The notes below the pieces were generated by a model. That model was not told where the DNA came from. It did not search any database and saw only the letters and a program-made list of their open reading frames with translations. A program made the translations under genes and the position numbers. From a virus (lineage: Duplodnaviria > Heunggongvirae > Uroviricota > Caudoviricetes), in the IMG/VR virus record IMGVR_UViG_2541047950_000002, positions 1 to 51,620 of that record: 51,620 nt of DNA; one strand, given 5' to 3'. Numbering within the stretch: position 1 is the first letter of the stretch; each line of letters opens with the position of its first letter. Positions 4,775 to 32,515 of the stretch are shown one piece after another.

Positions 4775-5599
4775 TCAGGCGGTGAAAGTACCAATAAAGG
4801 TTTCTACTTTGCTGTCTTTGAATTTCTCAACAAGCAGATCACGAAATTCGTTAGCCATTTCTTCCTGCACCGCTTCCAGCTGAATAATGCGCAGAACCAG
4901 TACAGGACGATCGCCAGTGATAATGCTGAGGCGTAATTTAAACGGACGTTCTTTCAGACCTTCAAACGGAACGCATTTAAATTCAAATGCCACTGGCATA
5001 ATGTCTTTGGTCTTCGCTTCGACAGACTCCATCAGGGAGCGTTTGCCGCTGAAGTCATTGTCTTCAAAATCAGCGGTCTGGTTTGCTTCAATCGTGATTT
5101 TACGGACTGCCGCAGCCGCTTTTGTTGCCTGAATAGCGTCACCATTAGCATCAAAGCCCACAAGGTAGTCGGCCCAGTCTTCGATCCATTCTGCCAGTGA
5201 TTTCTGGGAGTTACGCTCGCCATTAACAGACAACAGAGCAGAGAACGGTGCTGTCTTTTTCAGTTTGAGAGTGGCGGTGTTATCTGCGTGACCTGGTTCA
5301 TCAATAGTACCCAGGTTAAGCACACTGACGGCACGCATATTATCAGCATCGATAAAGCAGCGGGTGCCTTCATCTGCAAGATCTTTAGAATAACGGGTAA
5401 AGTCATCGATGCTGGCAGTGGAAAGCGCACCACGGAAACGGAAGCGATTTAAATTAAATTTTTCCAGATCATGAATGCGGAAATTCTCAGGCAATGCCAC
5501 AGCATCGGCACCAATCTTACTGATAATTTCATTAACACCCTGAGCAGAAATAAGGGCATGGATTTGATTAATTGCGGTTGCGTCTAAGTTCTGAGACAT
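4775..5599 (-). CDS. yfdQ: YfdQ-like DUF2303 family protein
   Basis: 274-aa ORF; length and sequence recall CPS-53 YfdQ. Confidence 0.55.
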
Positions 5600-5664
5600 A
5601 ATAAGTCCTCACTATATAAAGATATTCAGTGATGAGATAAATAATCAGTTAATTAAGAACGATA

Positions 5665-6027
5665 TTAATGACCTGCTGCGCGGAGTTTTCCGTCAGGTTC
5701 ACCGGCAAGAGTCAGTAATTGTCCCTGGTCTTCCTGCAGAATAGTCAGGCGACCACCGCGATTGACATACATCGGAGTTTCGGTGGTGTCTTCTTCGGAA
5801 ATTTTCCCGCGGTTAGTCGGGCGAACATATGAGAGTTTGTGTTTGATTTTCACACGGTTCTCATCAAATGGTTCGATTTCCAGGTTGAGCGAGACCTTAC
5901 CTTTGGTTTTCGTATTCATCACACCGGAAGCGACTTCACTGAGAACAGCGCCGATTTTGGTTTCAAATACGCCGCCGTCCAGCTCCCCGATAAATGCCTG
6001 CACATCAGTACTGCGTTCGCTAGCCAT
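5665..6027 (-). CDS. first gene of the leftward early operon (YfdP-like hypothetical, 121 aa)
   Basis: Internal ATG at 6025-6027 (MASERST) has GAGGAG about 7 nt upstream; the longer track ORF to 6213 has no RBS and runs through a hairpin. Confidence 0.45.
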   Translation of the reverse strand: MASERSTDVQAFIGELDGGVFETKIGAVLSEVASGVMNTKTKGKVSLNLEIEPFDENRVKIKHKLSYVRPTNRGKISEEDTTETPMYVNRGGRLTILQEDQGQLLTLAGEPDGKLRAAGH

Positions 6028-8400: not shown

Positions 8401-9560
8401 ACAGTTTAACGGCAAATAACCGTTTGTCGCAACAGCTGGTGGTCAGTGTCGCTGCACACCTGTTGTTACGGCATGAATGCAGATTACCAAATCACCTGGC
8501 TGTAAGTAACCACAGAGAACTTTACCTGACTGTGGGGGGCGAGTTGTGCAGGAACTTAACCGCTGGTTTCGTGACGGAAGAGGACTTTATGTTCATGTTA
8601 TTCGTTGGGAGCCAGAAACACAGCGCGTTATCTATCTTCGCAAAGACTACCCGCATGAGTGCTTTAGTCCTTTGTGGAAATTCAGGCGTGATTTTGTTGA
8701 GTGTGAAGGACCACCAGCATATTGATTCTGCAATTCCGGGACGTTACACTGTACCGGCACCTTATAAAGCGGGTGCCGGGATTGGCGTCCTGAAATTGAT
8801 TACTGAGCATAACCGCGCTCATGCGGTTTTTTCGTGTCATGAGCATTGCTACGCCCAAATTATGGTGGGGCGTACAGGGCCGACTTCGGTCGGGCCGGGT
8901 TCGGTAGTCTCCGGTAACGCCAACCCTGTACGTCTCACCACCTCTGTGATTGGCGTCCCATGTGGTGAGTTTTCTAAAAAACTGACTACCGGGGCTGTCA
9001 CTATGACTACTCTCCCAACCCTCTCTCAACCTGAAATTGCCATCGTTGATGGTCAGGCTGTTACATCTTCTTTGGCTGTTGCTGACTTCTTCTCTAAACG
9101 TCATGACGATGTTCTGAAAAAGATCCGCATTTTGGATTGTTCTCCAGAGTTTTGTGCCCGCAATTTTGCGGAGACATCAATTTTGGTACGCCAGCCCAAC
9201 GGCGGTACTCGCAAACTTCCTTGCTATCAAATCACCCGCGACGGTTTTGCGTTTCTTGCCATGGGCTTCACTGGTAAACGTGCTGCCCGGTTCAAAGAGG
9301 CATACATCAACGCCTTTAACCTGATGGAGAAACAGCTTTCAAAGCCCGCTGTACCGAGCGACGTTGCACATAACGCCAGCGTTCTCTGTTCCTACATTTC
9401 ATCAATTCATCAGGTCTGGCTGCAGCAGCTTTATCCTATGTTGGCAAAAGCCGAATCTCCGCTGGCTGTTAGCTTATATGACTATATTAATGATGCTTCG
9501 GCGCTGGCCTGCCTCATAAATTTGTCGCTGAACCCTTCAGAGGCAAGGGGGCGCAAATGA
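8397..9560 (+). CDS. ORF with C-terminal Rha (pRha) domain; N-terminal 200 aa unassigned (alternative start 9003)
   Basis: ATG at 8397 overlaps the upstream stop (ATGA); residues from MTTLPTLSQ (nt 9003) onward resemble Rha regulatory proteins; a second frame is also open over 8507-8722. Confidence 0.45.
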   Translation: MNSLTANNRLSQQLVVSVAAHLLLRHECRLPNHLAVSNHRELYLTVGGELCRNLTAGFVTEEDFMFMLFVGSQKHSALSIFAKTTRMSALVLCGNSGVILLSVKDHQHIDSAIPGRYTVPAPYKAGAGIGVLKLITEHNRAHAVFSCHEHCYAQIMVGRTGPTSVGPGSVVSGNANPVRLTTSVIGVPCGEFSKKLTTGAVTMTTLPTLSQPEIAIVDGQAVTSSLAVADFFSKRHDDVLKKIRILDCSPEFCARNFAETSILVRQPNGGTRKLPCYQITRDGFAFLAMGFTGKRAARFKEAYINAFNLMEKQLSKPAVPSDVAHNASVLCSYISSIHQVWLQQLYPMLAKAESPLAVSLYDYINDASALACLINLSLNPSEARGRK

Positions 9561-16335: not shown

Positions 16336-16411
16336 GGCCCTTTAGCTCAGTGGTGAGAGCGAGCGACTCATAATCGCCAGGTCGCTGGTTCAAATCCAGC
16401 AAGGGCCACCA
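16336..16411 (+). tRNA. tRNA with anticodon CAT (Met or Ile2-type)
   Basis: Manual cloverleaf: 7-bp acceptor GGCCCTT/AAGGGCC, anticodon loop CTCATAA, T-loop TTCAAAT, encoded 3' CCA. Confidence 0.8.
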
Positions 16412-16420
16412 TATCACATA

Positions 16421-16497
16421 CCGCCATTAGCTCATCGGGATAGAGCGTCAGCCTTCGAAGCTGGTTGCGCGGGGTTCGAGTCCTCGATGGCGGTCCA
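16421..16497 (+). tRNA. tRNA-Arg (anticodon TCG)
   Basis: Acceptor CCGCCAT/ATGGCGG, anticodon loop CTTCGAA, T-loop TTCGAGT, encoded CCA. Confidence 0.7.
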
Positions 16498-16510
16498 TTA
16501 TCGGTATTCA

Positions 16511-16587
16511 GCGTTGTTAGCTCAGCCGGACAGAGCAATTGCCTTCTAAGCAATCGGTCACTGGTTCGAATCCAGTACAACGCGCCA
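16511..16587 (+). tRNA. tRNA-Arg (anticodon TCT, reads AGA)
   Basis: Acceptor GCGTTGT/ACAACGC, anticodon stem ATTGC/GCAAT with loop CTTCTAA, T-loop TTCGAAT, encoded CCA. Confidence 0.8.
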
Positions 16588-17349: not shown

Positions 17350-17596
17350 CCGGGTATCAGTCATGCCCCGAAAATTTTAAATGTCTCACAATTCAGACGG
17401 TTGACAGTTGTCTGTTTTGCGGGGAGTTTGTTAAAAGAAACAGGCATGGTGAATCCCCCTGAGCGGAGGGGCGACTGGTGCATTAGGTGTTATCTTTGAT
17501 ACCCAGGAAAGTAAACGCGCGGGTTTGGTGGCACCGGGCTGAACTCACCGGGAGGCACCCGGCATCATGCGCATGATGATACAGATACGCGGCTTT

Positions 17597-17622
17597 AGCC
17601 CCTCTCCGGAGGGGCTTTTATA
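17597..17622 (+). terminator. rho-independent terminator
   Basis: Perfect hairpin AGCCCCTC-TCCG-GAGGGGCT followed by TTTTATATGAATTTT. Confidence 0.6.
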
Positions 17623-17650
17623 TGAATTTTGTAAGATATGAGTAAACTAA

Positions 17651-17986: not shown

Positions 17987-18247
17987 TTAGCCTCCTTATT
18001 TATGCTGTGCTGGTGATGTTCTGAAAAGTATAAATGATAATTTTGAATGTAAACCATAGAGCAGAATTATTTTTCTGATGTTGTTTATTGTTTATTTAAA
18101 TACAGGTTTTTTATATCCCGTCTTGTAGTTTATCCATGCATACCTGCTTTATGATGAGGTTTTCATTTAAGGTATGGTTTTGTGTTTTTTTTCTGTATTT
18201 CATGTCAGGTATTTTAAAGAATTGTTTTTAATATGGTGGAAAGAACC

Positions 18248-20215
18248 ATGGCATTTAAACACTACGATGTGGTCAGGGCGGCGTCGCCGTCAGACCTTGC
18301 GGAGCGACTGACTCAAAAACTGAAGGAGGGGTGGCAGCCATTTGGCAGCCCTGTCGCCATCACGCCTTATACCCTGATGCAGGCCATTGCGGCGGAAGGT
18401 GATGTCACCACACCTGTGGTGGTGAAGCCGTCGGATGGAGAAGGCACAGTAATCAGCGCCACCAGCGACCCGGAGTATTACTTTGTTGTGGTTCTGGCAG
18501 GGCAGTCAAATGGCATGTCGTATGGTGAAGGTCTTCCGCTGCCGGAGACATATGACCGTCCGGACCCGCGTATTAAGCAGCTGGCGCGCCGCAGTACGGT
18601 GACACCGGGCGGTGCCGCCTGTAAGTATAACGACATTATTCCGGCGGACCATTGTCTGCATGATGTGCAGGACATGAGCCGTCTTAACCATCCGAAAGCG
18701 GACCTGTCAAAGGGGCAGTACGGAACCGTGGGGCAGGGGCTGCATATCGCCAAAAAACTGCTGCCGTTTATACCGGCGAATGCGGGCATTCTGCTGGTTC
18801 CGTGCTGCCGTGGTGCTTCGGCATTCACAACGGGGGCAGACGGCACATACAGCGAATCAGCCGGTGCATCGGAAAATTCACTGCGCTGGGGTGTGGGTAA
18901 GCCGCTGTATCAGGATTTGGTGAGCCGGACTAAAGCCGCACTGGCGAAGAACCCGAAAAACCGTCTGCTTGCGGTGGTGTGGATGCAGGGAGAAGGTGAT
19001 GCGGCAGTGGGGACGCATGCGCAGCATCCGGGGCTGTTTAGTGCGATGGTGAATCAGTTCAGAACGGAGCTTGCCGGTCTGGCATCACAGAGCACAGGAG
19101 GCAGCGCATCAGCGGTACCGTGGATTTGCGGGGACACAACGTATTTCTGGAAGCAGCGTCATGCGGAAGGGTATGCATCAGTATACGGAGGGTATAAGGG
19201 GAAGGAGTCGCAGAACATTTTCTTTGTACCGTTAATGACGGATGAGAATGGTGCGAATGTGCAGACCAATAACCCGGCAGAAGACCCGGACCTGGAAACC
19301 GTCGGTTATTACGGTTCAAAGTGGCGTAATGACCAGAAGACCTGGACATCAGCAGACAGGGCCAGCCATTTCAGTTCATGGGCTCGCCGTGGGATTATTT
19401 CCGACCGTCTGGCAACGGCGATTCTGTTGCACGCCGGGAGAACCGCTGAATTCATTACCGGAAAACAGCCTGATACGGTGAAGCCCACCGGACCTTCCGG
19501 TGAAGGTCCGGAGAGAGAGGCGGAAGCCCCGGCCAGTAAGCGTACCCTGATGAGTCTGCTGGCATCCGGCGAAGACCTGGCATCACAGGGCTGGCGCTAT
19601 TATCACAAACCGGCGAGCGGAGACAGTATTGATAAAAACATCGCTGAGGCTGTGGTCAGTGATGAGGGTGCCACCGGTGGTAAGGCCCTGCAACTGAACA
19701 AACCGGAAAGCCACATCTGGTTTCTGGAGCATGATGCAGCCGGGCAGGGGGCAGAGTTACTGAAGAAAGGCGGACGTGTGAGCGTGCGGTTTAAGGTGCC
19801 GGGCTCACTGGTACAGAACCGGTTTGCCCTGGGTATTTACTGGCAGTTGTCGTCCCTGCCGGAGGGTGTGTCGCTGGCGGAGGAAGGCAACGACATGCTG
19901 ATGTCCTTCTTCCTGCAGACGGATGCGACGAACCTGAACGCGATGTACCACAAGACGCAGAATGCGAAGCTGGATACGTTCGGGGCATTTGATAACGAAT
20001 GGCACACACTGTCTTTTGAGTTTGCCGGAAACAACAGTATTCAGGTGACGCCGGTACTTGATGAGAAGCGGGGCACGCCATTCACGCTGGTGAAATCTCA
20101 GGCAACAGGGGTGGCGGATAAACTTCTGCTGACTGATATCACGAAGGTAGCAACGTATACGCTGCTGATTGACAGCGTGAAGGTGGAAGTGAACAACGCG
20201 GACGCCGCGGCATGA
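18248..20215 (+). CDS. NanS-p-like sialate O-acetylesterase (N-terminal DUF1737-like, C-terminal carbohydrate esterase)
   Basis: About 655 aa; N-terminus MAFKHYDVVRAASPSDLAERL recalls the Stx-phage NanS-p/YjhS family; same position relative to Q and S as in Stx phages. Confidence 0.65.
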   Translation: MAFKHYDVVRAASPSDLAERLTQKLKEGWQPFGSPVAITPYTLMQAIAAEGDVTTPVVVKPSDGEGTVISATSDPEYYFVVVLAGQSNGMSYGEGLPLPETYDRPDPRIKQLARRSTVTPGGAACKYNDIIPADHCLHDVQDMSRLNHPKADLSKGQYGTVGQGLHIAKKLLPFIPANAGILLVPCCRGASAFTTGADGTYSESAGASENSLRWGVGKPLYQDLVSRTKAALAKNPKNRLLAVVWMQGEGDAAVGTHAQHPGLFSAMVNQFRTELAGLASQSTGGSASAVPWICGDTTYFWKQRHAEGYASVYGGYKGKESQNIFFVPLMTDENGANVQTNNPAEDPDLETVGYYGSKWRNDQKTWTSADRASHFSSWARRGIISDRLATAILLHAGRTAEFITGKQPDTVKPTGPSGEGPEREAEAPASKRTLMSLLASGEDLASQGWRYYHKPASGDSIDKNIAEAVVSDEGATGGKALQLNKPESHIWFLEHDAAGQGAELLKKGGRVSVRFKVPGSLVQNRFALGIYWQLSSLPEGVSLAEEGNDMLMSFFLQTDATNLNAMYHKTQNAKLDTFGAFDNEWHTLSFEFAGNNSIQVTPVLDEKRGTPFTLVKSQATGVADKLLLTDITKVATYTLLIDSVKVEVNNADAAA

Positions 20216-27771: not shown

Positions 27772-27961
27772 ACTGCAGGCGCTGCGTCAGGCGCGCCTTG
27801 ATTTATTAACCGGTAAACGGGTGGTGTCTGTCCAGAAAGATGGTCGCAGAATTGAATATACGGCGGCTTCTCTGGATGAGCTTAACCGTGCGATCAATGA
27901 TGCGGAGTCGGTACTGGGGACAACCCGACGTCGCCGTCGTCCGCTGGGAGTGAGGTTATGA
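27755..27961 (+). CDS. W: head-tail joining protein W
   Basis: 68 aa; LTGKRVVSVQKDGRRIEYTAAS matches lambda gpW. Confidence 0.8.
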   Translation: MVTVAELQALRQARLDLLTGKRVVSVQKDGRRIEYTAASLDELNRAINDAESVLGTTRRRRRPLGVRL

Positions 27962-29550
27962 AACGAACGCCTGTCCTGATTGATGTGAACGGCGTTCCGC
28001 TTCGGGAGAGCCTCAGCTACCATGGGGGCGGTGCAGGATTTGGCGGGCAAATGGCGGAGTGGTTGCCACCGGCGCAGAGTGCCGATGCGGCCCTGCTGCC
28101 CGCGTTGCGTCTGGGGAATGCCCGTGCAGATGATCTGGTGCGCAATAACGGGATAGCGGCTAATGCGGTGGCCCTGCATAAGGATCATATTGTCGGGCAT
28201 ATGTTTCTGATCAGCTACCGTCCGAACTGGCGCTGGCTGGGGATGCGGGAGACTGCGGCAAAAAGTTTTGTCGATGAGGTGGAGGCGGCCTGGTCGGAAT
28301 ACGCCGAAGGGATATTTGGCGAGATCGATGTGGAAGGGAAACGCACGTTTACGGAATTTATCCGTGAAGGTGTGGGCGTTCATGCGTTTAACGGCGAAAT
28401 CTTTGTGCAGCCGGTCTGGGATACGGAGAGCACGCAACTGTTTCGTACGCGTTTTAAAGCCGTGAGTCCGAAACGGGTGGACACGCCAGAACACGGTATG
28501 GGGAACCGTTTTCTGCGGGCCGGTGTGGAGGTTGATCGATATGGTCGTGCCGTTGCGTACCATATCTGTGAGGATGATTTTCCGTTCTCCGGGAGTGGAC
28601 GATGGGAACGGATCCCGCGTGAACTTCCCACCGGGCGTCCGGCCATGCTGCATATTTTCGAGCCGGTGGAGGACGGGCAGACCCGTGGGGCCAATCAGTT
28701 TTACAGCGTCATGGAACGGCTGAAGATGCTCGATTCCCTGCAGGCAACACAGCTTCAGTCGGCCATAGTGAAGGCGATGTATGCAGCGACGATTGAAAGT
28801 GAACTTGATACCGAAAAGGCCTTTGAATATATCGCGGGGGCACCACAGGGTCAGCAGGATAATCCGCTCATTAATATTCTGGAGAAGTTCTCCAGCTGGT
28901 ATGACACGAATCACGTGACGCTGGGTGGTGTCAAAATTCCGCACCTTTTCCCCGGTGATGATCTGAAACTGCAGACCGCGCAGGATTCAGACAATGGATT
29001 TTCGGCGCTTGAACAGGCTCTGCTGCGGTATATCGCCGCCGGTCTTGGCGTTTCCTACGAACAGTTGTCCCGTGATTACTCGAAGGTCAGTTATTCAAGT
29101 GCCCGCGCCTCTGCCAATGAGTCGTGGCGCTATTTTATGGGACGACGAAAATTTATTGCGGCCCGGCTGGCCACGCAGATGTTTTCCTGCTGGCTGGAAG
29201 AGGCACTTCTTCGGGGGATTATCCGTCCGCCACGGGCACGTTTTGATTTTTATCAGGCGCGATCAGCCTGGTCACGGGCAGAGTGGATTGGTGCCGGAAG
29301 AATGGCCATTGACGGGCTCAAGGAGGTCCAGGAATCGGTGATGCGTATTGATTCCGGACTGAGCACGTATGAGAAAGAGCTGGCGCTGATGGGTGAGGAT
29401 TATCAGGACATTTTCCGCCAGCAGGTCAGGGAATCCGCAGAGCGGGAAAAGGCCGGACTCTCACGTCCGGTGTGGATAGCGCAGGCGTATCAGCAGCAGA
29501 TAGCGGAGAGCCGCAGGCCGGAAGAGGAGACAACACCACGTGAGACGTAA
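27958..29550 (+). CDS. B: portal protein (gpB-like)
   Basis: 530 aa; position after W and recalled similarity to lambda gpB. Confidence 0.85.
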   Translation: MKRTPVLIDVNGVPLRESLSYHGGGAGFGGQMAEWLPPAQSADAALLPALRLGNARADDLVRNNGIAANAVALHKDHIVGHMFLISYRPNWRWLGMRETAAKSFVDEVEAAWSEYAEGIFGEIDVEGKRTFTEFIREGVGVHAFNGEIFVQPVWDTESTQLFRTRFKAVSPKRVDTPEHGMGNRFLRAGVEVDRYGRAVAYHICEDDFPFSGSGRWERIPRELPTGRPAMLHIFEPVEDGQTRGANQFYSVMERLKMLDSLQATQLQSAIVKAMYAATIESELDTEKAFEYIAGAPQGQQDNPLINILEKFSSWYDTNHVTLGGVKIPHLFPGDDLKLQTAQDSDNGFSALEQALLRYIAAGLGVSYEQLSRDYSKVSYSSARASANESWRYFMGRRKFIAARLATQMFSCWLEEALLRGIIRPPRARFDFYQARSAWSRAEWIGAGRMAIDGLKEVQESVMRIDSGLSTYEKELALMGEDYQDIFRQQVRESAEREKAGLSRPVWIAQAYQQQIAESRRPEEETTPRET

Positions 29551-31045
29551 TCTTTCACACATTATTGCCGCAGCGTTCAATGAACCGCTGCTTCTGGAGC
29601 CCGCCTATGCGCGGGTTTTCTTTTGCGCGCTCGGACGCGAGATGGGGGCTGCAAGTCTTTCGGTACCACAACAGCAGGTACAGCTTGATGCTCCCGGAAT
29701 GCTGGCTGAAACGGACGAGTACATGGCCGGAGGTAAACGACCGGCCCGTGTTTACCGGGTGGTGAACGGTATTGCGGTACTGCCGGTGACCGGCACGCTG
29801 GTGCACCGGCTGGGTGGCATGCGGCCATTTTCCGGAATGACAGGCTATGACGGCATTGTCGCCTGTCTTCAGCAGGCAATGGCGGATAGCCAGGTGCGGG
29901 GCGTACTGCTGGACATTGACAGTCCGGGCGGGCAGGCCGCAGGCGCGTTTGACTGCGCTGACATGATTTACCGCCTCCGGCAGCAGAAGCCTGTCTGGGC
30001 ACTGTGCAATGACACGGCCTGTTCTGCAGCCATGCTGCTGGCGTCGGCCTGCTCCCGACGGCTGGTTACCCAGACATCCCGTATCGGCTCCATTGGCGTG
30101 ATGATGAGCCATGTCAGCTATGCCGGTCATCTGGCGCAGGCCGGGGTGGATATCACGCTGATTTATGCCGGGGCGCATAAGGTGGATGGCAATCAGTTTG
30201 AAGCGTTACCGTCAGAGGTGCGTCAGGACATGCAGCAGCGCATTGATGCGGCGCACCGGATGTTTGCCGAAAAAGTGGCGATGTATACGGGGCTGTCTGT
30301 GGACGCTGTCACGGGGACAGAGGCTGCCGTTTTTGAAGGTCAGTCCGGCCTTAATACCGGACTGGCGGATGAATTAATCAATGCGTCGGATGCCATCAGC
30401 GTGATGGCTGCGGCGCTGAACACACATGATACAGGAGGCACTATGCCGCAATTAACTGCAACGGAAGCTGCCGCGCAGGAGAACCAGCGAGTGATGGGGA
30501 TCCTGACGTGTCAGGAAGCGAAAGGACGTGAACACCTTGCCACGATGCTGGCAGGACAACAGGGCATGAGCGTTGAACAGGCCCGGGCGATTCTGACCGC
30601 GGCAGCACCACAGCAGCCGGTGGCATCCGCGCAGAGTGAAGCCGATCGCATTATGGCGTGTGAAGAGGCTAAAGGTCGTGAACAACTGGCGGCAACGCTG
30701 GCGGCGATGCCGGAGATGACGGTGGAAAAAGCCCGCCTGATCCTGGCGGCTGCACCACTGGCGGATGCCGGGCCCTCACTCCGTGATCAGATCATGGCCC
30801 TGGATGAGGCAAAAGGGGCAGAAGCGCAGGCTGAACAGCTGGCGGCCTGCCCGGGAATGACAGTGGAGAACGCCTGGGCTGTGCTGGCTGCGGGATCAGG
30901 TAAGGCCGAACCGGTCTCTGCATCCACAACCGCCCTGTTTGAACATTTCATGGCGAATCATTCACCGGCAGCGGTGCGGGGTGGCGTGTCACAGACGTCA
31001 GCAGACGGTGATGCGGACGTGAAAATGCTCATGGCCATGCCATGA
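29540..31045 (+). CDS. C: head maturation protease/scaffold (gpC with nested Nu3-like region), S49 family
   Basis: 501 aa; S49 protease core similar to lambda gpC; the C-terminal region carries a triplicated EAKGRE...ARxILAAAP motif. Confidence 0.85.
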   Translation: MRRNLSHIIAAAFNEPLLLEPAYARVFFCALGREMGAASLSVPQQQVQLDAPGMLAETDEYMAGGKRPARVYRVVNGIAVLPVTGTLVHRLGGMRPFSGMTGYDGIVACLQQAMADSQVRGVLLDIDSPGGQAAGAFDCADMIYRLRQQKPVWALCNDTACSAAMLLASACSRRLVTQTSRIGSIGVMMSHVSYAGHLAQAGVDITLIYAGAHKVDGNQFEALPSEVRQDMQQRIDAAHRMFAEKVAMYTGLSVDAVTGTEAAVFEGQSGLNTGLADELINASDAISVMAAALNTHDTGGTMPQLTATEAAAQENQRVMGILTCQEAKGREHLATMLAGQQGMSVEQARAILTAAAPQQPVASAQSEADRIMACEEAKGREQLAATLAAMPEMTVEKARLILAAAPLADAGPSLRDQIMALDEAKGAEAQAEQLAACPGMTVENAWAVLAAGSGKAEPVSASTTALFEHFMANHSPAAVRGGVSQTSADGDADVKMLMAMP

Positions 31046-31081
31046 AGTCAGTGCTGACCATCAATATGAGGTTTTAACAAA

Positions 31082-31429
31082 ATGGTGACGAAAACCATCA
31101 CTGAACAGCGTGCGGAAGTACGTATTTTTGCCGGTAATGATCCGGCTCATACCGCCACAGGCAGCAGCGGGATTTCTTCTGCAACACCGGCTCTGACGCC
31201 CCTGATGCTGGATGAAGCTACCGGGAAACTGGTGGTCTGGGATGGACAGAAAGCCGGTAGTGCGGTTGGCATACTGGTACTGCCGCTTGAAGGCACAGAG
31301 ACGGTGCTGACCTATTACAAGTCGGGGACCTTTGCGACGGAGGCTGTCCGCTGGCCTGAAAGTGTGGATGAACACAAAAAGGCCAACGCCTTTGTCGGCA
31401 CAGCCCTGAGTCACGCGGCGCTGCCGTAA
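31082..31429 (+). CDS. D: head decoration protein D
   Basis: 115 aa; GNDPAHTAT...TPLMLD...YKSGTF matches lambda gpD. Confidence 0.85.
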   Translation: MVTKTITEQRAEVRIFAGNDPAHTATGSSGISSATPALTPLMLDEATGKLVVWDGQKAGSAVGILVLPLEGTETVLTYYKSGTFATEAVRWPESVDEHKKANAFVGTALSHAALP

Positions 31430-31486: not shown

Positions 31487-32515
31487 ATGGGATTGTTTAC
31501 GACCCGCCAGTTACTCGGTTATACCGAACAAAAAGTGAAATTTCGTGCGCTGTTTCTGGAGCTGTTTTTCCGCCGTACGGTGAATTTCCACACCGAAGAG
31601 GTGATGCTGGATAAAATTACCGGAAAAACGCCGGTGGCAGCCTATGTCTCCCCGGTTGTTGAAGGAAAAGTGCTGCGTCATCGTGGTGGTGAAACCCGCG
31701 TGTTGCGTCCGGGCTACGTCAAGCCGAAACACGAATTTAATTACCAGCAGGCGGTGGAGCGCCTTCCCGGTGAAGATCCGGCGCAGCTGAACGACCCGGC
31801 CTACCGTCGTCTGCGTATCATCACCGATAACCTCAAACAGGAAGAGCACGCCATTGTCCAGGTGGAAGAAATGCAGGCGGTGAATGCCGTTCTGTATGGT
31901 AAATACACCATGGAAGGGGAGCAGTTTGATACTGTCGAGGTTGATTTCGGGCGCTCTGAAGGAAATAACATTGAGCAGGCTGACGGTAAAAAATGGTCTG
32001 AGCAGGACCGTGATACGTTTGATCCGACGCATGATATTGACCTCTACTGCGATCAGGCCAGCGGTCTTGTGAATATCGCCATTATGGACGGTACGGTCTG
32101 GCGTCTGCTGAATGGCTTTAAGCTGTTCCGCGAAAAACTGGATACCCGTCGCGGCTCAAATTCACAACTCGAAACGGCAGTGAAAGATCTGGGCGCAGTG
32201 GTGTCCTTCAAGGGGTATTACGGCGATCTGGCCATTGTGGTGGCGAAAACGTCTTATGTGGCAGAGGACGGTACTGAAAAACGTTATCTGCCGGAGGGCA
32301 CGCTGGTCCTGGGAAATACGGCTGCTGATGGCATCCGTTGCTATGGTGCCATTCAGGATGCGCAGGCGTTGTCCGAAGGTGTGGTGGCCTCTTCCCGTTA
32401 TCCGAAACACTGGCTGACCGTTGGCGATCCGGCCCGTGAATTCACCATGACGCAGTCCGCTCCGCTGATGGTGCTGCCGGATCCGGATGAGTTTGTGGTG
32501 GTACAGGTGAAATAA
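31487..32515 (+). CDS. E: major capsid protein E
   Basis: 342 aa; extensive similarity to lambda gpE as recalled (PGYVKPKHE, LDTRRGSNS.LETAVKDLG, TGDPAREFTM.QSAPLM). Confidence 0.9.
   Translation: MGLFTTRQLLGYTEQKVKFRALFLELFFRRTVNFHTEEVMLDKITGKTPVAAYVSPVVEGKVLRHRGGETRVLRPGYVKPKHEFNYQQAVERLPGEDPAQLNDPAYRRLRIITDNLKQEEHAIVQVEEMQAVNAVLYGKYTMEGEQFDTVEVDFGRSEGNNIEQADGKKWSEQDRDTFDPTHDIDLYCDQASGLVNIAIMDGTVWRLLNGFKLFREKLDTRRGSNSQLETAVKDLGAVVSFKGYYGDLAIVVAKTSYVAEDGTEKRYLPEGTLVLGNTAADGIRCYGAIQDAQALSEGVVASSRYPKHWLTVGDPAREFTMTQSAPLMVLPDPDEFVVVQVK

What the first reader, a model, noticed from the sequence alone, without database searches (positions are those of the whole stretch)
30480..30900. Triplicated 47-52-aa motif in the C/Nu3 scaffold region
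The C-terminal part of the gpC-like ORF has three tandem diverged copies of a motif ending in an ARxILAAAP-like helix (TCQEAKGREHLATMLAGQQGMSVEQARAILTAAAP; ACEEAKGREQLAATLAAMPEMTVEKARLILAAAPL; LDEAKGAEAQAEQLAACPGMTVENAWAVLAAGS). As I recall, lambda has a single copy, which makes this ORF about 60 aa longer.
Basis: partly seen in the sequence, partly recalled or inferred. Interest (0 to 1): 0.4.

Follow-up and report, generated by a model that had tools for sequence, protein, structure and literature searches.

The report
Phage 21 "Tri box" scaffold repeats
The head protease/scaffold gene of this E. coli prophage does carry three diverged copies of a small helical module that phage lambda has once, but the triplication was already marked in the 1993 sequence record of phage 21 and sits in about a third of complete E. 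coli genomes, so it is real but ordinary.

Summary

**What is there.** ORF 29540-31045 (+, 501 aa) is a lambda gpC-type S49 prohead protease. An in-frame internal start (AGGAGG, then ATG at 30443) gives a 200-aa Nu3-type scaffold. Its C-terminal part holds three tandem protein repeats: aa 312-357, 362-407 and 409-454 (nt 30473-30901), with periods of 50 and 47 aa and z = 11-17 against shuffles. Lambda C (439 aa) has one copy.

**Why it is not new.** The gene is 95% identical, ungapped, to phage 21 genes 5/6. GenBank record M81255 already annotates these three segments as "Tri1 box / Tri box / Tri3 box, function unknown". About 1,864 of 5,426 complete E. coli genomes carry the array. It is also in Gifsy-1, Shigella, E. 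albertii and Providencia.

**What I added.**
- Each unit is predicted to be a ~40-residue three-helix module (I-x4-EAKGRE-x-LA-x2-LA-x4-MT-x-E-x-A-x3-L-x2-AP).
- The module matches 1,680 protein clusters, almost all with one copy, and has no Pfam family or solved structure.
- The triplication is old, the copies are orthologous by position, and they are under purifying selection.
- Copy number ranges from 1 to 4, with independent duplications elsewhere.

**Likely role (inferred, untested).** The module targets scaffold and protease into the procapsid. Three copies would make a longer, multivalent scaffold.

The parts
29540..31045 (+). gpC-type prohead protease / scaffold fusion ORF (501 aa, GTG start overlapping the end of the portal gene); orthologue of phage 21 gene 5
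   Evidence: ORF list. Pfam Peptidase_S49 E=3.2e-35. PHROG 53 head maturation protease E=6.5e-225. 95.3% nucleotide identity, ungapped over 1506 nt, to M81255 gene 5. 57% aa identity to lambda C.
29975..30418 (+). S49 peptidase domain (aa 146-293). Ser162 (codon 30023-30025) and Lys214 (codon 30179-30181) align with lambda Ser166 and Lys218.
   Evidence: Pfam PF01343 match to aa 146-293. PDB SppA matches 3rst/4kwb, E~2e-16. Invariant columns in the alignment and residue positions.
30433..30438 (+). AGGAGG ribosome-binding site for the nested scaffold gene
   Evidence: Sequence read. Lambda has the same AGGAGG-spacer-ATG arrangement at C codon 309. Annotated as the gene 6 RBS in both phage 21 records.
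30443..31045 (+). Nested in-frame Nu3-type scaffolding protein (200 aa); orthologue of phage 21 gene 6. The homologous lambda product is 131 aa.
   Evidence: PHROG 8399 'head scaffolding protein' matched three times.
30473..30610 (+). Repeat copy 1 (aa 312-357), AQENQRVMGILTCQEAKGREHLATMLAGQQGMSVEQARAILTAAAP; corresponds to the Tri1 box of phage 21
   Evidence: The Tri1 box of M81255 maps to window 30510-30613.
30623..30760 (+). Repeat copy 2 (aa 362-407), ASAQSEADRIMACEEAKGREQLAATLAAMPEMTVEKARLILAAAPL; corresponds to the Tri (second) box
   Evidence: The Tri box maps to window 30650-30760.
30764..30901 (+). Repeat copy 3 (aa 409-454), DAGPSLRDQIMALDEAKGAEAQAEQLAACPGMTVENAWAVLAAGSG; corresponds to the Tri3 box. 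It is the most diverged copy (KGAE instead of KGRE; W where relatives have R).
   Evidence: The Tri3 box maps to window 30791-30904.
30902..31042 (+). C-terminal tail shared by protease and scaffold (aa 455-501). It has a conserved short helix (TALFEHFMANHSP) and a conserved end (...DVKMLMAMP). Lambda has the equivalent TALDRLMQGAP...DLLNTPV.
   Evidence: Alignments. Predicted helices at Nu3 residues 160-173 and 191-196, at low confidence.
27958..29550 (+). Context: lambda-family portal protein (gpB homologue)
   Evidence: Pfam Phage_portal_2 E=2e-100. 61% identity to lambda B.
31082..31429 (+). Context: head decoration protein (gpD / phage 21 Shp homologue)
   Evidence: Pfam HDPD E=1.9e-24. 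Annotated shp in M81255.
31487..32515 (+). Context: major capsid protein (gpE homologue), the presumed partner of the scaffold
   Evidence: Pfam Phage_cap_E E=8.9e-67. 62% identity to lambda E, 342 vs 341 aa.

Best explanation
The three repeats are the 'Tri boxes' of the phage 21-type head protease/scaffold gene.

Shown:
- One reading frame gives two products: a 501-aa S49 protease-scaffold fusion from GTG 29540, and a 200-aa scaffold from the internal AGGAGG/ATG at 30443. Both carry the same C-terminal 200 residues.
- That shared part consists of three copies of a ~40-residue module joined by short, low-confidence linkers, followed by a conserved tail.
- The module is predicted to fold as three short helices, with an invariant A-K-G-R-E turn between the first and second.
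- The module is the conserved core of lambda-type Nu3 scaffolds, normally present once.
- The triplication arose by old tandem duplication in the phage 21 / Gifsy-1 lineage. Each copy is orthologous by position across E. coli, Salmonella and Providencia phages, and is kept by purifying selection on the protein.

Inferred:
- By analogy with lambda Nu3, the module is the unit through which scaffold, and the few protease molecules that share it, are recruited into the growing procapsid. Lambda Nu3 is reported to interact with itself, C, portal B and capsid protein E.
- The invariant charged KGRE turn is the likely contact surface.
- Three modules per chain would give a longer, multivalent scaffold that can bridge several partners without relying as much on weak self-association. 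They also replace lambda's long disordered linker.
- After assembly the S49 protease would degrade the scaffold, as in lambda.
For: Identity:
- 95.3% ungapped nucleotide identity to phage 21 genes 5/6, and the Tri1/Tri/Tri3 annotation maps onto the three copies.
- S49 domain with the Ser and Lys columns conserved.
- Portal - protease/scaffold - D - E gene order.
- The internal RBS+ATG is homologous to lambda's.

The repeats are real and old:
- z = 11-17 against shuffles; third codon positions are only 37-41% identical between copies.
- Same-position copies in different phages are 60-72% identical, against 50-58% for different positions. The nearest neighbour is a same-position copy in 43 of 48 cases.
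- pN/pS is 0.24-0.30 in the repeat region.
- 58 of 60 sampled E. coli genomes have the array at exactly 603 nt.
- Viable phages carry it: phage 21, ev017, 4A7, 1W, 3W, Gifsy-1.

The module is a conserved family:
- A profile of 21 copies finds 1,680 representative clusters at E<=0.001, almost all with one matched stretch. They sit at the C-terminus of ~430-500-aa S49 proteins or in ~130-aa stand-alone scaffolds.
- 225 phage records match, spanning Escherichia, Klebsiella, Proteus, Aeromonas, Vibrio, Xylella and Pseudomonas phages.
- One unit superposes on the C-terminal part of S49 proteases in BFVD at rmsd 1.1-2.0 A over 51-59 columns.

Structure: the AlphaFold model built with a 16-sequence alignment gives three helices per unit at pLDDT 75-84, linkers below 50-65, and pTM 0.28, i.e. 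beads on a string.

Lambda Nu3 interactions with Nu3, C, B and E are listed in PMC3224144.
Against: - No experiment or computation here shows what the module binds. The phage 21 record itself says 'function unknown; putative'.
- AlphaFold confidence is only moderate (mean pLDDT 69), and no solved structure resembles the model.
- From my memory of Medina et al. 2011, which I could not read, lambda Nu3 is described as largely intrinsically disordered. The modules may therefore fold only on binding.
- In other phages the extreme C-terminus of the scaffold, not an internal module, binds the coat protein. The conserved tail (aa 455-501) could be the real capsid contact, and the repeats something else.
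- Copy 3 in this lineage has lost the Arg of KGRE. That argues against three equivalent binding sites.
Confidence: 0.8

Rival explanations
1. The repeats are only a length spacer. They would be a flexible, largely disordered stretch whose length, not its sequence, matters, for example by setting the distance between the protease domain or scaffold N-terminus and the capsid-binding C-terminal tail.
For: - Lambda has a 36-aa low-complexity linker where phage 21 has almost none, so total length is partly compensated.
- The linkers and tail are low-confidence in the model and no inter-repeat packing is predicted (pTM 0.28).
- Partial in-frame deletions of copy 2 exist in natural prophages (L008; P0009 with 53 members).
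Against: - A mere spacer would not keep 7 invariant and 7 nearly invariant columns across 21 copies, including Vibrio and metagenome homologues.
- It would not define a family of 1,680 clusters.
- It would not keep copies orthologous by position or show pN/pS of 0.24-0.30.
- It is unknown whether the deletion variants sit in viable phages.
Confidence: 0.12
2. The module is a self-association or portal-binding element rather than a capsid-protein-binding one. Three copies in one chain would mimic intramolecularly the oligomer that single-copy lambda Nu3 forms.
For: - Nu3-Nu3 (dimer or multimer) and Nu3-B interactions are listed for lambda (PMC3224144).
- Single-copy scaffolds are the rule, so oligomerisation could supply valency there.
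Against: - AlphaFold predicts no packing between the three modules, though the alignment is shallow.
- Nothing here distinguishes this from capsid binding. It is a variant of the best explanation rather than an exclusive alternative.
Confidence: 0.25
3. The similarity is a by-product of alanine-rich low-complexity sequence, a recent replication-slippage event, or an assembly artefact.
For: - The region is 23% alanine.
- Tandem Repeats Finder sees no DNA repeat.
Against: - Composition-preserving shuffles never come near the observed scores (z = 11-17).
- The copies differ at 41-51% of nucleotides, so the duplication is not recent.
- The same array is in 1,864 complete E. coli genomes and in independently sequenced phages.
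Confidence: 0.01
4. The repeated segments act at the DNA or RNA level, for example as the CII-binding sites annotated on the minus strand in the phage 21 genome record, as an antisense promoter, or as minus-strand ORFs.
For: - OL657228 annotates two TTGYN6TTGY 'CII binding sites' inside gene 6. Both are present here at 30448-30461 and 30682-30695 on the minus strand.
- Minus-strand ORFs of 54-77 aa overlap the region.
Against: - The pattern is not enriched: 8 matches in the window against 12 +/- 3 expected.
- Only one of the two sites lies inside a repeat, and the repeats are not conserved as DNA.
- No promoter-like site and no Rfam family falls in the region.
- Conservation follows the + strand codon phase: first and second positions are 54-70% identical, third positions 37-41%.
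Confidence: 0.02

Closest known systems
Phage 21 genes 5 and 6 (head-tail preconnector gp5 / scaffold gp6) with Tri1, Tri and Tri3 boxes; GenBank M81255 and OL657228. From memory, the source paper is Smith & Feiss 1993, Gene 126:1.
   Same: 95.3% nucleotide identity over the whole 1506-nt gene without gaps. Same GTG start, same internal RBS and ATG, and the same three boxes at the same positions. This is the same gene.
   Different: About 5% of residues differ. For example, copy 3 has W here where phage 21 has R, and copy 2 has ARLILAAAPL against ARPILAASPQ. Here the gene lies in a prophage integrated at dusA that has a different early region.
Bacteriophage lambda C / Nu3 (S49 prohead protease with a nested scaffolding protein)
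   Same: - Same gene order.
- 57% identity overall; S49 domain with the aligned Ser and Lys.
- Homologous internal AGGAGG-ATG start.
- Same module and the same kind of C-terminal tail.
   Different: Lambda has one module and a linker 36 aa longer. Its C is 439 aa and its short Nu3 131 aa, against 501 and 200 aa here.
Salmonella phage Gifsy-1 STM2605 (lambda gpC homologue)
   Same: 498 aa with three modules in the same order. Each is closest to the same-position module here, which shows that the triplication predates the E. coli / Salmonella phage split.
   Different: Only about 56-60% identical in the scaffold part. All three Gifsy-1 copies keep Arg or His at the KGRE position.
P22 gp8 scaffolding protein, C-terminal helix-turn-helix coat-binding domain (functional analogue only)
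   Same: A small helical hairpin with conserved basic residues at the turn, located in the C-terminal part of a scaffold protein. From established knowledge, this is how P22 scaffold binds coat protein.
   Different: No detectable sequence or fold match (Foldseek against PDB, no hit with E<=0.001). P22 has one such domain and no fused protease. This is a resemblance in logic, not membership.
Herpesvirus UL26 / UL26.5 and phage Mu I/Z or P2 gpO (protease and scaffold sharing a C-terminus through nested in-frame genes)
   Same: The same design: a minor protease-scaffold fusion and an abundant scaffold share the C-terminal capsid-targeting part (established knowledge).
   Different: Unrelated protease folds and sequences. 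I know of no tandem module repeats in those systems.

Membership tests
Lambda gpC/Nu3-type nested prohead protease-scaffold | S49 (SppA-like) peptidase domain | tested here: met
   Pfam PF01343 E=3.2e-35, aa 146-293, above the curated cut-off. SppA structures 3rst/4kwb match at E~2e-16.
Lambda gpC/Nu3-type nested prohead protease-scaffold | Catalytic Ser and Lys of the S49 dyad conserved | tested here: met
   Ser162 and Lys214 lie in invariant columns with lambda Ser166 and Lys218. That lambda Ser166 is the nucleophile is from my memory of Medina et al. 2010; it was not checked here.
Lambda gpC/Nu3-type nested prohead protease-scaffold | Position between the lambda-family portal gene and the D (decoration) and E (major capsid) genes | tested here: met
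   Pfam Phage_portal_2, HDPD and Phage_cap_E on the flanking ORFs.
Lambda gpC/Nu3-type nested prohead protease-scaffold | In-frame internal translation start producing a separate scaffold protein | tested here: met
   AGGAGG at 30433-30438 and ATG at 30443, homologous to lambda's AGGAGG-ATG at C codon 309. Annotated as gene 6 in phage 21. This is sequence evidence only; expression was not tested.
Lambda gpC/Nu3-type nested prohead protease-scaffold | Conserved Nu3 core module followed by the C-terminal tail | tested here: met
   The module is present three times. The same profile finds lambda's single copy at E=1.9e-24. The tail aligns with lambda's.
Lambda gpC/Nu3-type nested prohead protease-scaffold | Scaffolding activity and proteolytic removal during head maturation | not testable with these tools
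   Needs assembly assays.
Phage 21 gp5/gp6 'Tri box' variant | Three tandem copies of the module at the annotated Tri1/Tri/Tri3 positions | tested here: met
   The M81255 repeat_region features map to window 30510-30613, 30650-30760 and 30791-30904, and translate to the three copies.
Phage 21 gp5/gp6 'Tri box' variant | Orthology to phage 21 gene 5/6 | tested here: met
   95.3% ungapped nucleotide identity over 1506 nt; 95% aa identity.
P22-type scaffold helix-turn-helix coat-binding domain (considered as analogue) | Detectable structural similarity to the solved domain | tested here: not met
   Foldseek of the 200-aa model against PDB gave no match with E<=0.001. The test is weak, because the domain is small and the model is multi-domain with flexible linkers.

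The most novel reading that the evidence does not exclude
The ~40-residue 'Tri' module may be an unrecognised, widespread domain family that serves as the actual capsid- or portal-docking unit of lambda-type scaffolds. It matches at least 1,680 clusters and has no Pfam entry or solved structure. Its copy number (1, 2, 3 or 4, with independent duplications in unrelated lineages such as P0142, P0110 and P0146) may be an evolvable dial for scaffold valency, so that multi-copy scaffolds replace oligomerisation of single-copy ones.
Probability: 0.3. Interest if true: 0.35.

Novelty: already known. Interest (0 to 1): 0.15.

Why it matters
It matters little as a discovery. The triplication has been in GenBank since the phage 21 head operon was sequenced, and it is one of the commonest prophage genes in E. 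coli.

The residual value is modest:
- Its function is still listed as unknown.
- The module has no Pfam family and no solved structure.
- Natural 1-, 2-, 3- and 4-copy variants within otherwise identical head modules form a ready-made series for asking how a lambda-type scaffold engages capsid protein and portal.

Tried and rejected
- Tandem Repeats Finder and DNA repeat search on 30200-31100 found no array, because the repeat is too diverged at the DNA level.
- Pfam scans of the scaffold part and of single copies gave no family.
- A PDB sequence search matched only the protease domain.
- Foldseek of the AlphaFold model against PDB gave nothing significant. Against BFVD it gave only short local matches to other S49 prohead proteases.
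- The single-sequence AlphaFold run was poor (pLDDT 61). The run with an alignment was moderate (pLDDT 69).
- Literature searches for the Tri boxes or the phage 21 head-gene paper found nothing in the held library. Medina et al. 2011 on gpNu3 is not held.
With the single protein it returned only 4 species-representative loci.
- The first homologue search returned mostly truncated proteins from contig ends. Copy numbers there are reliable only for sequences that span the whole region.
- The CII-binding-site idea taken from the OL657228 annotation was rejected: the pattern is not enriched.
- Minus-strand ORFs of 54-77 aa were rejected as by-products of the GC- and Ala-rich coding strand. Conservation follows the + strand codon phase.

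Full report
**What is at the coordinates.** The + strand ORF 29540..31045 (GTG start, 501 aa) overlaps the end of a lambda-family portal gene. It is followed by homologues of the lambda decoration protein D and major capsid protein E. Residues 146-293 are a Peptidase_S49 domain (Pfam E=3.2e-35) and match solved SppA structures. PHROGs classifies the whole protein as head maturation protease. At 30433-30438 there is an AGGAGG, followed by an in-frame ATG at 30443. Lambda has the same AGGAGG-ATG arrangement at codon 309 of C. The locus therefore encodes a protease-scaffold fusion and, nested within it, a 200-aa Nu3-type scaffold. The homologous lambda product is 131 aa.

**The observation.** A windowed BLOSUM62 self-comparison of the C-terminal 200 residues gives strong diagonals at offsets of 50 and 47 residues. 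The three copies are:
- aa 312-357 (nt 30473-30610)
- aa 362-407 (nt 30623-30760)
- aa 409-454 (nt 30764-30901)

Pairwise Smith-Waterman scores are 99, 70 and 94. Composition-preserving shuffles give 22-23 +/- 4.5, never above 47 in 2,000 trials (z = 11-17). The alanine-rich composition therefore does not explain the similarity. At the DNA level the copies are 49-59% identical in register. First and second codon positions are 54-70% identical, but third positions only 37-41%. That is why Tandem Repeats Finder reports nothing and the DNA repeat search finds only 13-17-nt fragments.

**The interpretation.** An alignment with lambda C (439 aa, NC_001416 4418-5737) shows one copy in lambda. Lambda also has a 36-aa longer low-complexity linker upstream of the copy. 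A motif profile that did not include lambda itself finds exactly one unit in lambda (E=1.9e-24) and three in Gifsy-1.

**It is already known.** The gene is 95.3% identical over all 1506 nt, without gaps, to genes 5/6 of phage 21. Mapped onto the window, they fall at 30510-30613, 30650-30760 and 30791-30904. They translate to the cores of the three copies. From memory, the record belongs to Smith & Feiss 1993, Gene 126:1. The paper is not in the held library.

**How common it is.**
- The full gene is present at >=80% coverage in 1,866 of 5,426 complete E. coli genomes.
- The 603-nt scaffold part is present in 1,864.
- In an evenly spaced sample of 60 records, 58 have exactly 603 nt, one has an in-frame 57-nt deletion and one is truncated.
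- It is carried by viable phages: phage 21, ev017, 4A7, Lambda_4C10, 1W, 3W, D2 and the PhiR series.
- Three-copy genes also occur in Shigella flexneri, E. albertii and Providencia alcalifaciens, in Salmonella and in Gifsy-1.

**Copy-number survey.**
- A tblastn of a consensus unit against 50,697 phage records found 225 records and 264 places. That fits about 19-20 three-copy records, which are the phage 21-type ones. All the others have a single copy. They include lambda, HK225, N15, Stx1a phages and Aeromonas, Proteus, Providencia, Klebsiella, Vibrio, Xylella and Pseudomonas phages.
- A profile of 21 units searched against 1.84 billion cluster representatives found 1,680 proteins at E<=0.001.
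- Of the best 150, 53 are full-length (>=380 aa). Of these, 51 have one unit, one has two (P0142) and one has three (P0102).
- Many ~110-160-aa hits with one unit look like separately called Nu3-type scaffolds.
- Variants of the phage 21 type exist with two units (P0018, P0022), a partly deleted second unit (P0009, L008) and four units (P0025/L004, E. coli GCA_032727965.1).
- Independent duplications occur in distant proteins: P0142 (with a Pro-rich spacer), P0110, P0146, P0182 and P0209.
- The four-unit gene and P0142 each lie directly upstream of the D and E homologues. For P0142 the terminase and portal genes upstream are also on the contig.

**Age and selection.** I compared 16 three-copy proteins.
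- Same-position units in different proteins are 60-72% identical. Units at different positions are 50-58% identical, whether in the same or different proteins.
- The nearest neighbour of a unit in another protein is a same-position unit in 43 of 48 cases.
- The triplication therefore predates the spread of this head module across Escherichia, Salmonella and Providencia phages, and there is no sign of concerted evolution.
- By contrast, units 2-4 of the four-copy variant are 79-89% identical to each other, which points to a more recent expansion.
- Between orthologues, pN/pS in the repeat region is 0.24-0.30, against 0.05-0.17 in the protease part. This is purifying selection, somewhat relaxed.

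**Anatomy of the unit.**
- The alignment of 21 units has seven invariant columns: A16, G18, E20, A23, L26, M32, A37.
- It has seven nearly invariant columns: I10, K17, R19, A27, L41, A43, P46.
- The resulting motif is I-x4-E-A-K-G-R-E-x-L-A-x2-L-A-x4-M-T-x-E-x-A-x3-L-x2-A-P.
- AlphaFold2 with a 16-sequence alignment predicts, for each unit, a first helix, a short turn carrying KGR, a second helix, a P-G-M loop and a third helix. pLDDT is 75-84 in the units and below 50-65 in the linkers and tail. pTM is 0.28, so no fixed arrangement between units is predicted.
- No Pfam family covers the unit and no PDB sequence matches it.
- Foldseek against PDB gives nothing significant.
- In BFVD, one unit superposes locally on the C-terminal region of other S49 prohead proteases, including a Synechococcus virus (51 columns, rmsd 1.1 A). 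The E-values are weak because the unit is small.

**Mechanism (inference).** In lambda, reported interactions include Nu3-Nu3, Nu3-C, Nu3-B and Nu3-E (PMC3224144). The nested-gene design gives protease and scaffold a common C-terminal part (Shaw & Murialdo 1980, cited). The most economical reading has three steps:
1. The conserved module, with its invariant charged turn, is the docking or self-association unit that brings both proteins into the procapsid.
2. The conserved tail contributes as well.
3. Three modules per chain make a longer, multivalent scaffold.

Both capsid proteins have almost the same length and are 62% identical. Phage 21 and lambda build the same kind of head, so copy number is not a capsid-size ruler. 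Rivals are a pure spacer role, or an oligomerisation- or portal-specific role; nothing available here separates these. Chance, artefact and DNA-level explanations are rejected.

**Verdict.** The feature is already known, and it is one of the commonest prophage genes in E. coli. Interest is low. The only open point is that the function of the module, and of its multiplication, has never been established.

Noticed in passing
window 8757-8945 (+): Rfam gathering-level matches to isrK (8757-8833) and C4 antisense RNA (8858-8945). This is a P1/P7-type C4/isrK antirepressor-control element in the early region of this lambdoid prophage.
   Followed up: no
window 16336-16587 (+) and 17415-17627 (+): A cluster of three tRNA genes (Met-CAT, Arg-TCG, Arg-TCT), followed by an STnc100 sRNA match (139 bits). 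It lies upstream of a 660-aa ORF at 18233-20215. I recall this layout from the late-gene regulatory region of Stx-type lambdoid prophages, although no stx-sized ORFs were seen.
   Followed up: no
window 49021-51620: The right end of the window appears to be the prophage-host junction. It holds a tyrosine integrase (49021-50118, minus strand) next to dusA (50207-51244) and pspG, so the prophage is probably integrated at dusA in E. coli. The left 3 kb is 100% identical to several Shiga-toxin-type E. coli genomes.
   Followed up: partly
window about 30872-30874 (copy 3, ENAWAVLAAG): The third repeat has Trp where phage 21 and another E. coli orthologue (L007) have Arg, and where most other copies aligned have Arg or Lys; this is the 'AR' of the ARxIL helix. 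In the whole E. coli phage 21 lineage, copy 3 also has KGAE instead of the otherwise nearly invariant KGRE.
   Followed up: partly
window 30926-30960 (aa 463-474, TTALFEHFMANH): The start of the C-terminal tail resembles the first helix of a repeat unit (SEADRIMAC, SLRDQIMAL; lambda TALDRLMQG). A 15-nt direct repeat links 30784-30798 with 30940-30954. The array may be '3.3' units, and lambda's '1.3'. The stretch is too short to test statistically.
   Followed up: no
L003 (NC_001416) 2333-2938 = lambda 5132-5737: RefSeq annotates lambda nu3 as 201 aa starting at C codon 239, inside the protease domain. The start homologous to phage 21 gene 6 (AGGAGG-ATG) is at codon 309 and gives 131 aa, which is also the length of the PHROG 8399 scaffold profile.
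   Followed up: partly
L004 (E. coli GCA_032727965.1 contig ABNWJB010000046.1) 1-1043; L005 4001-5410: A four-copy variant, whose last three copies are 79-89% identical to each other, and an independent two-copy variant with a Pro-rich spacer. Each lies directly upstream of lambda-type D and E homologues.
   Followed up: partly
L008 (NZ_CP173570.1) 98-1546: A natural in-frame 19-aa deletion removes the second half of repeat 2 in an E. coli prophage. The same variant is protein cluster P0009, with 53 members. Whether these prophages still make heads is unknown.
   Followed up: no
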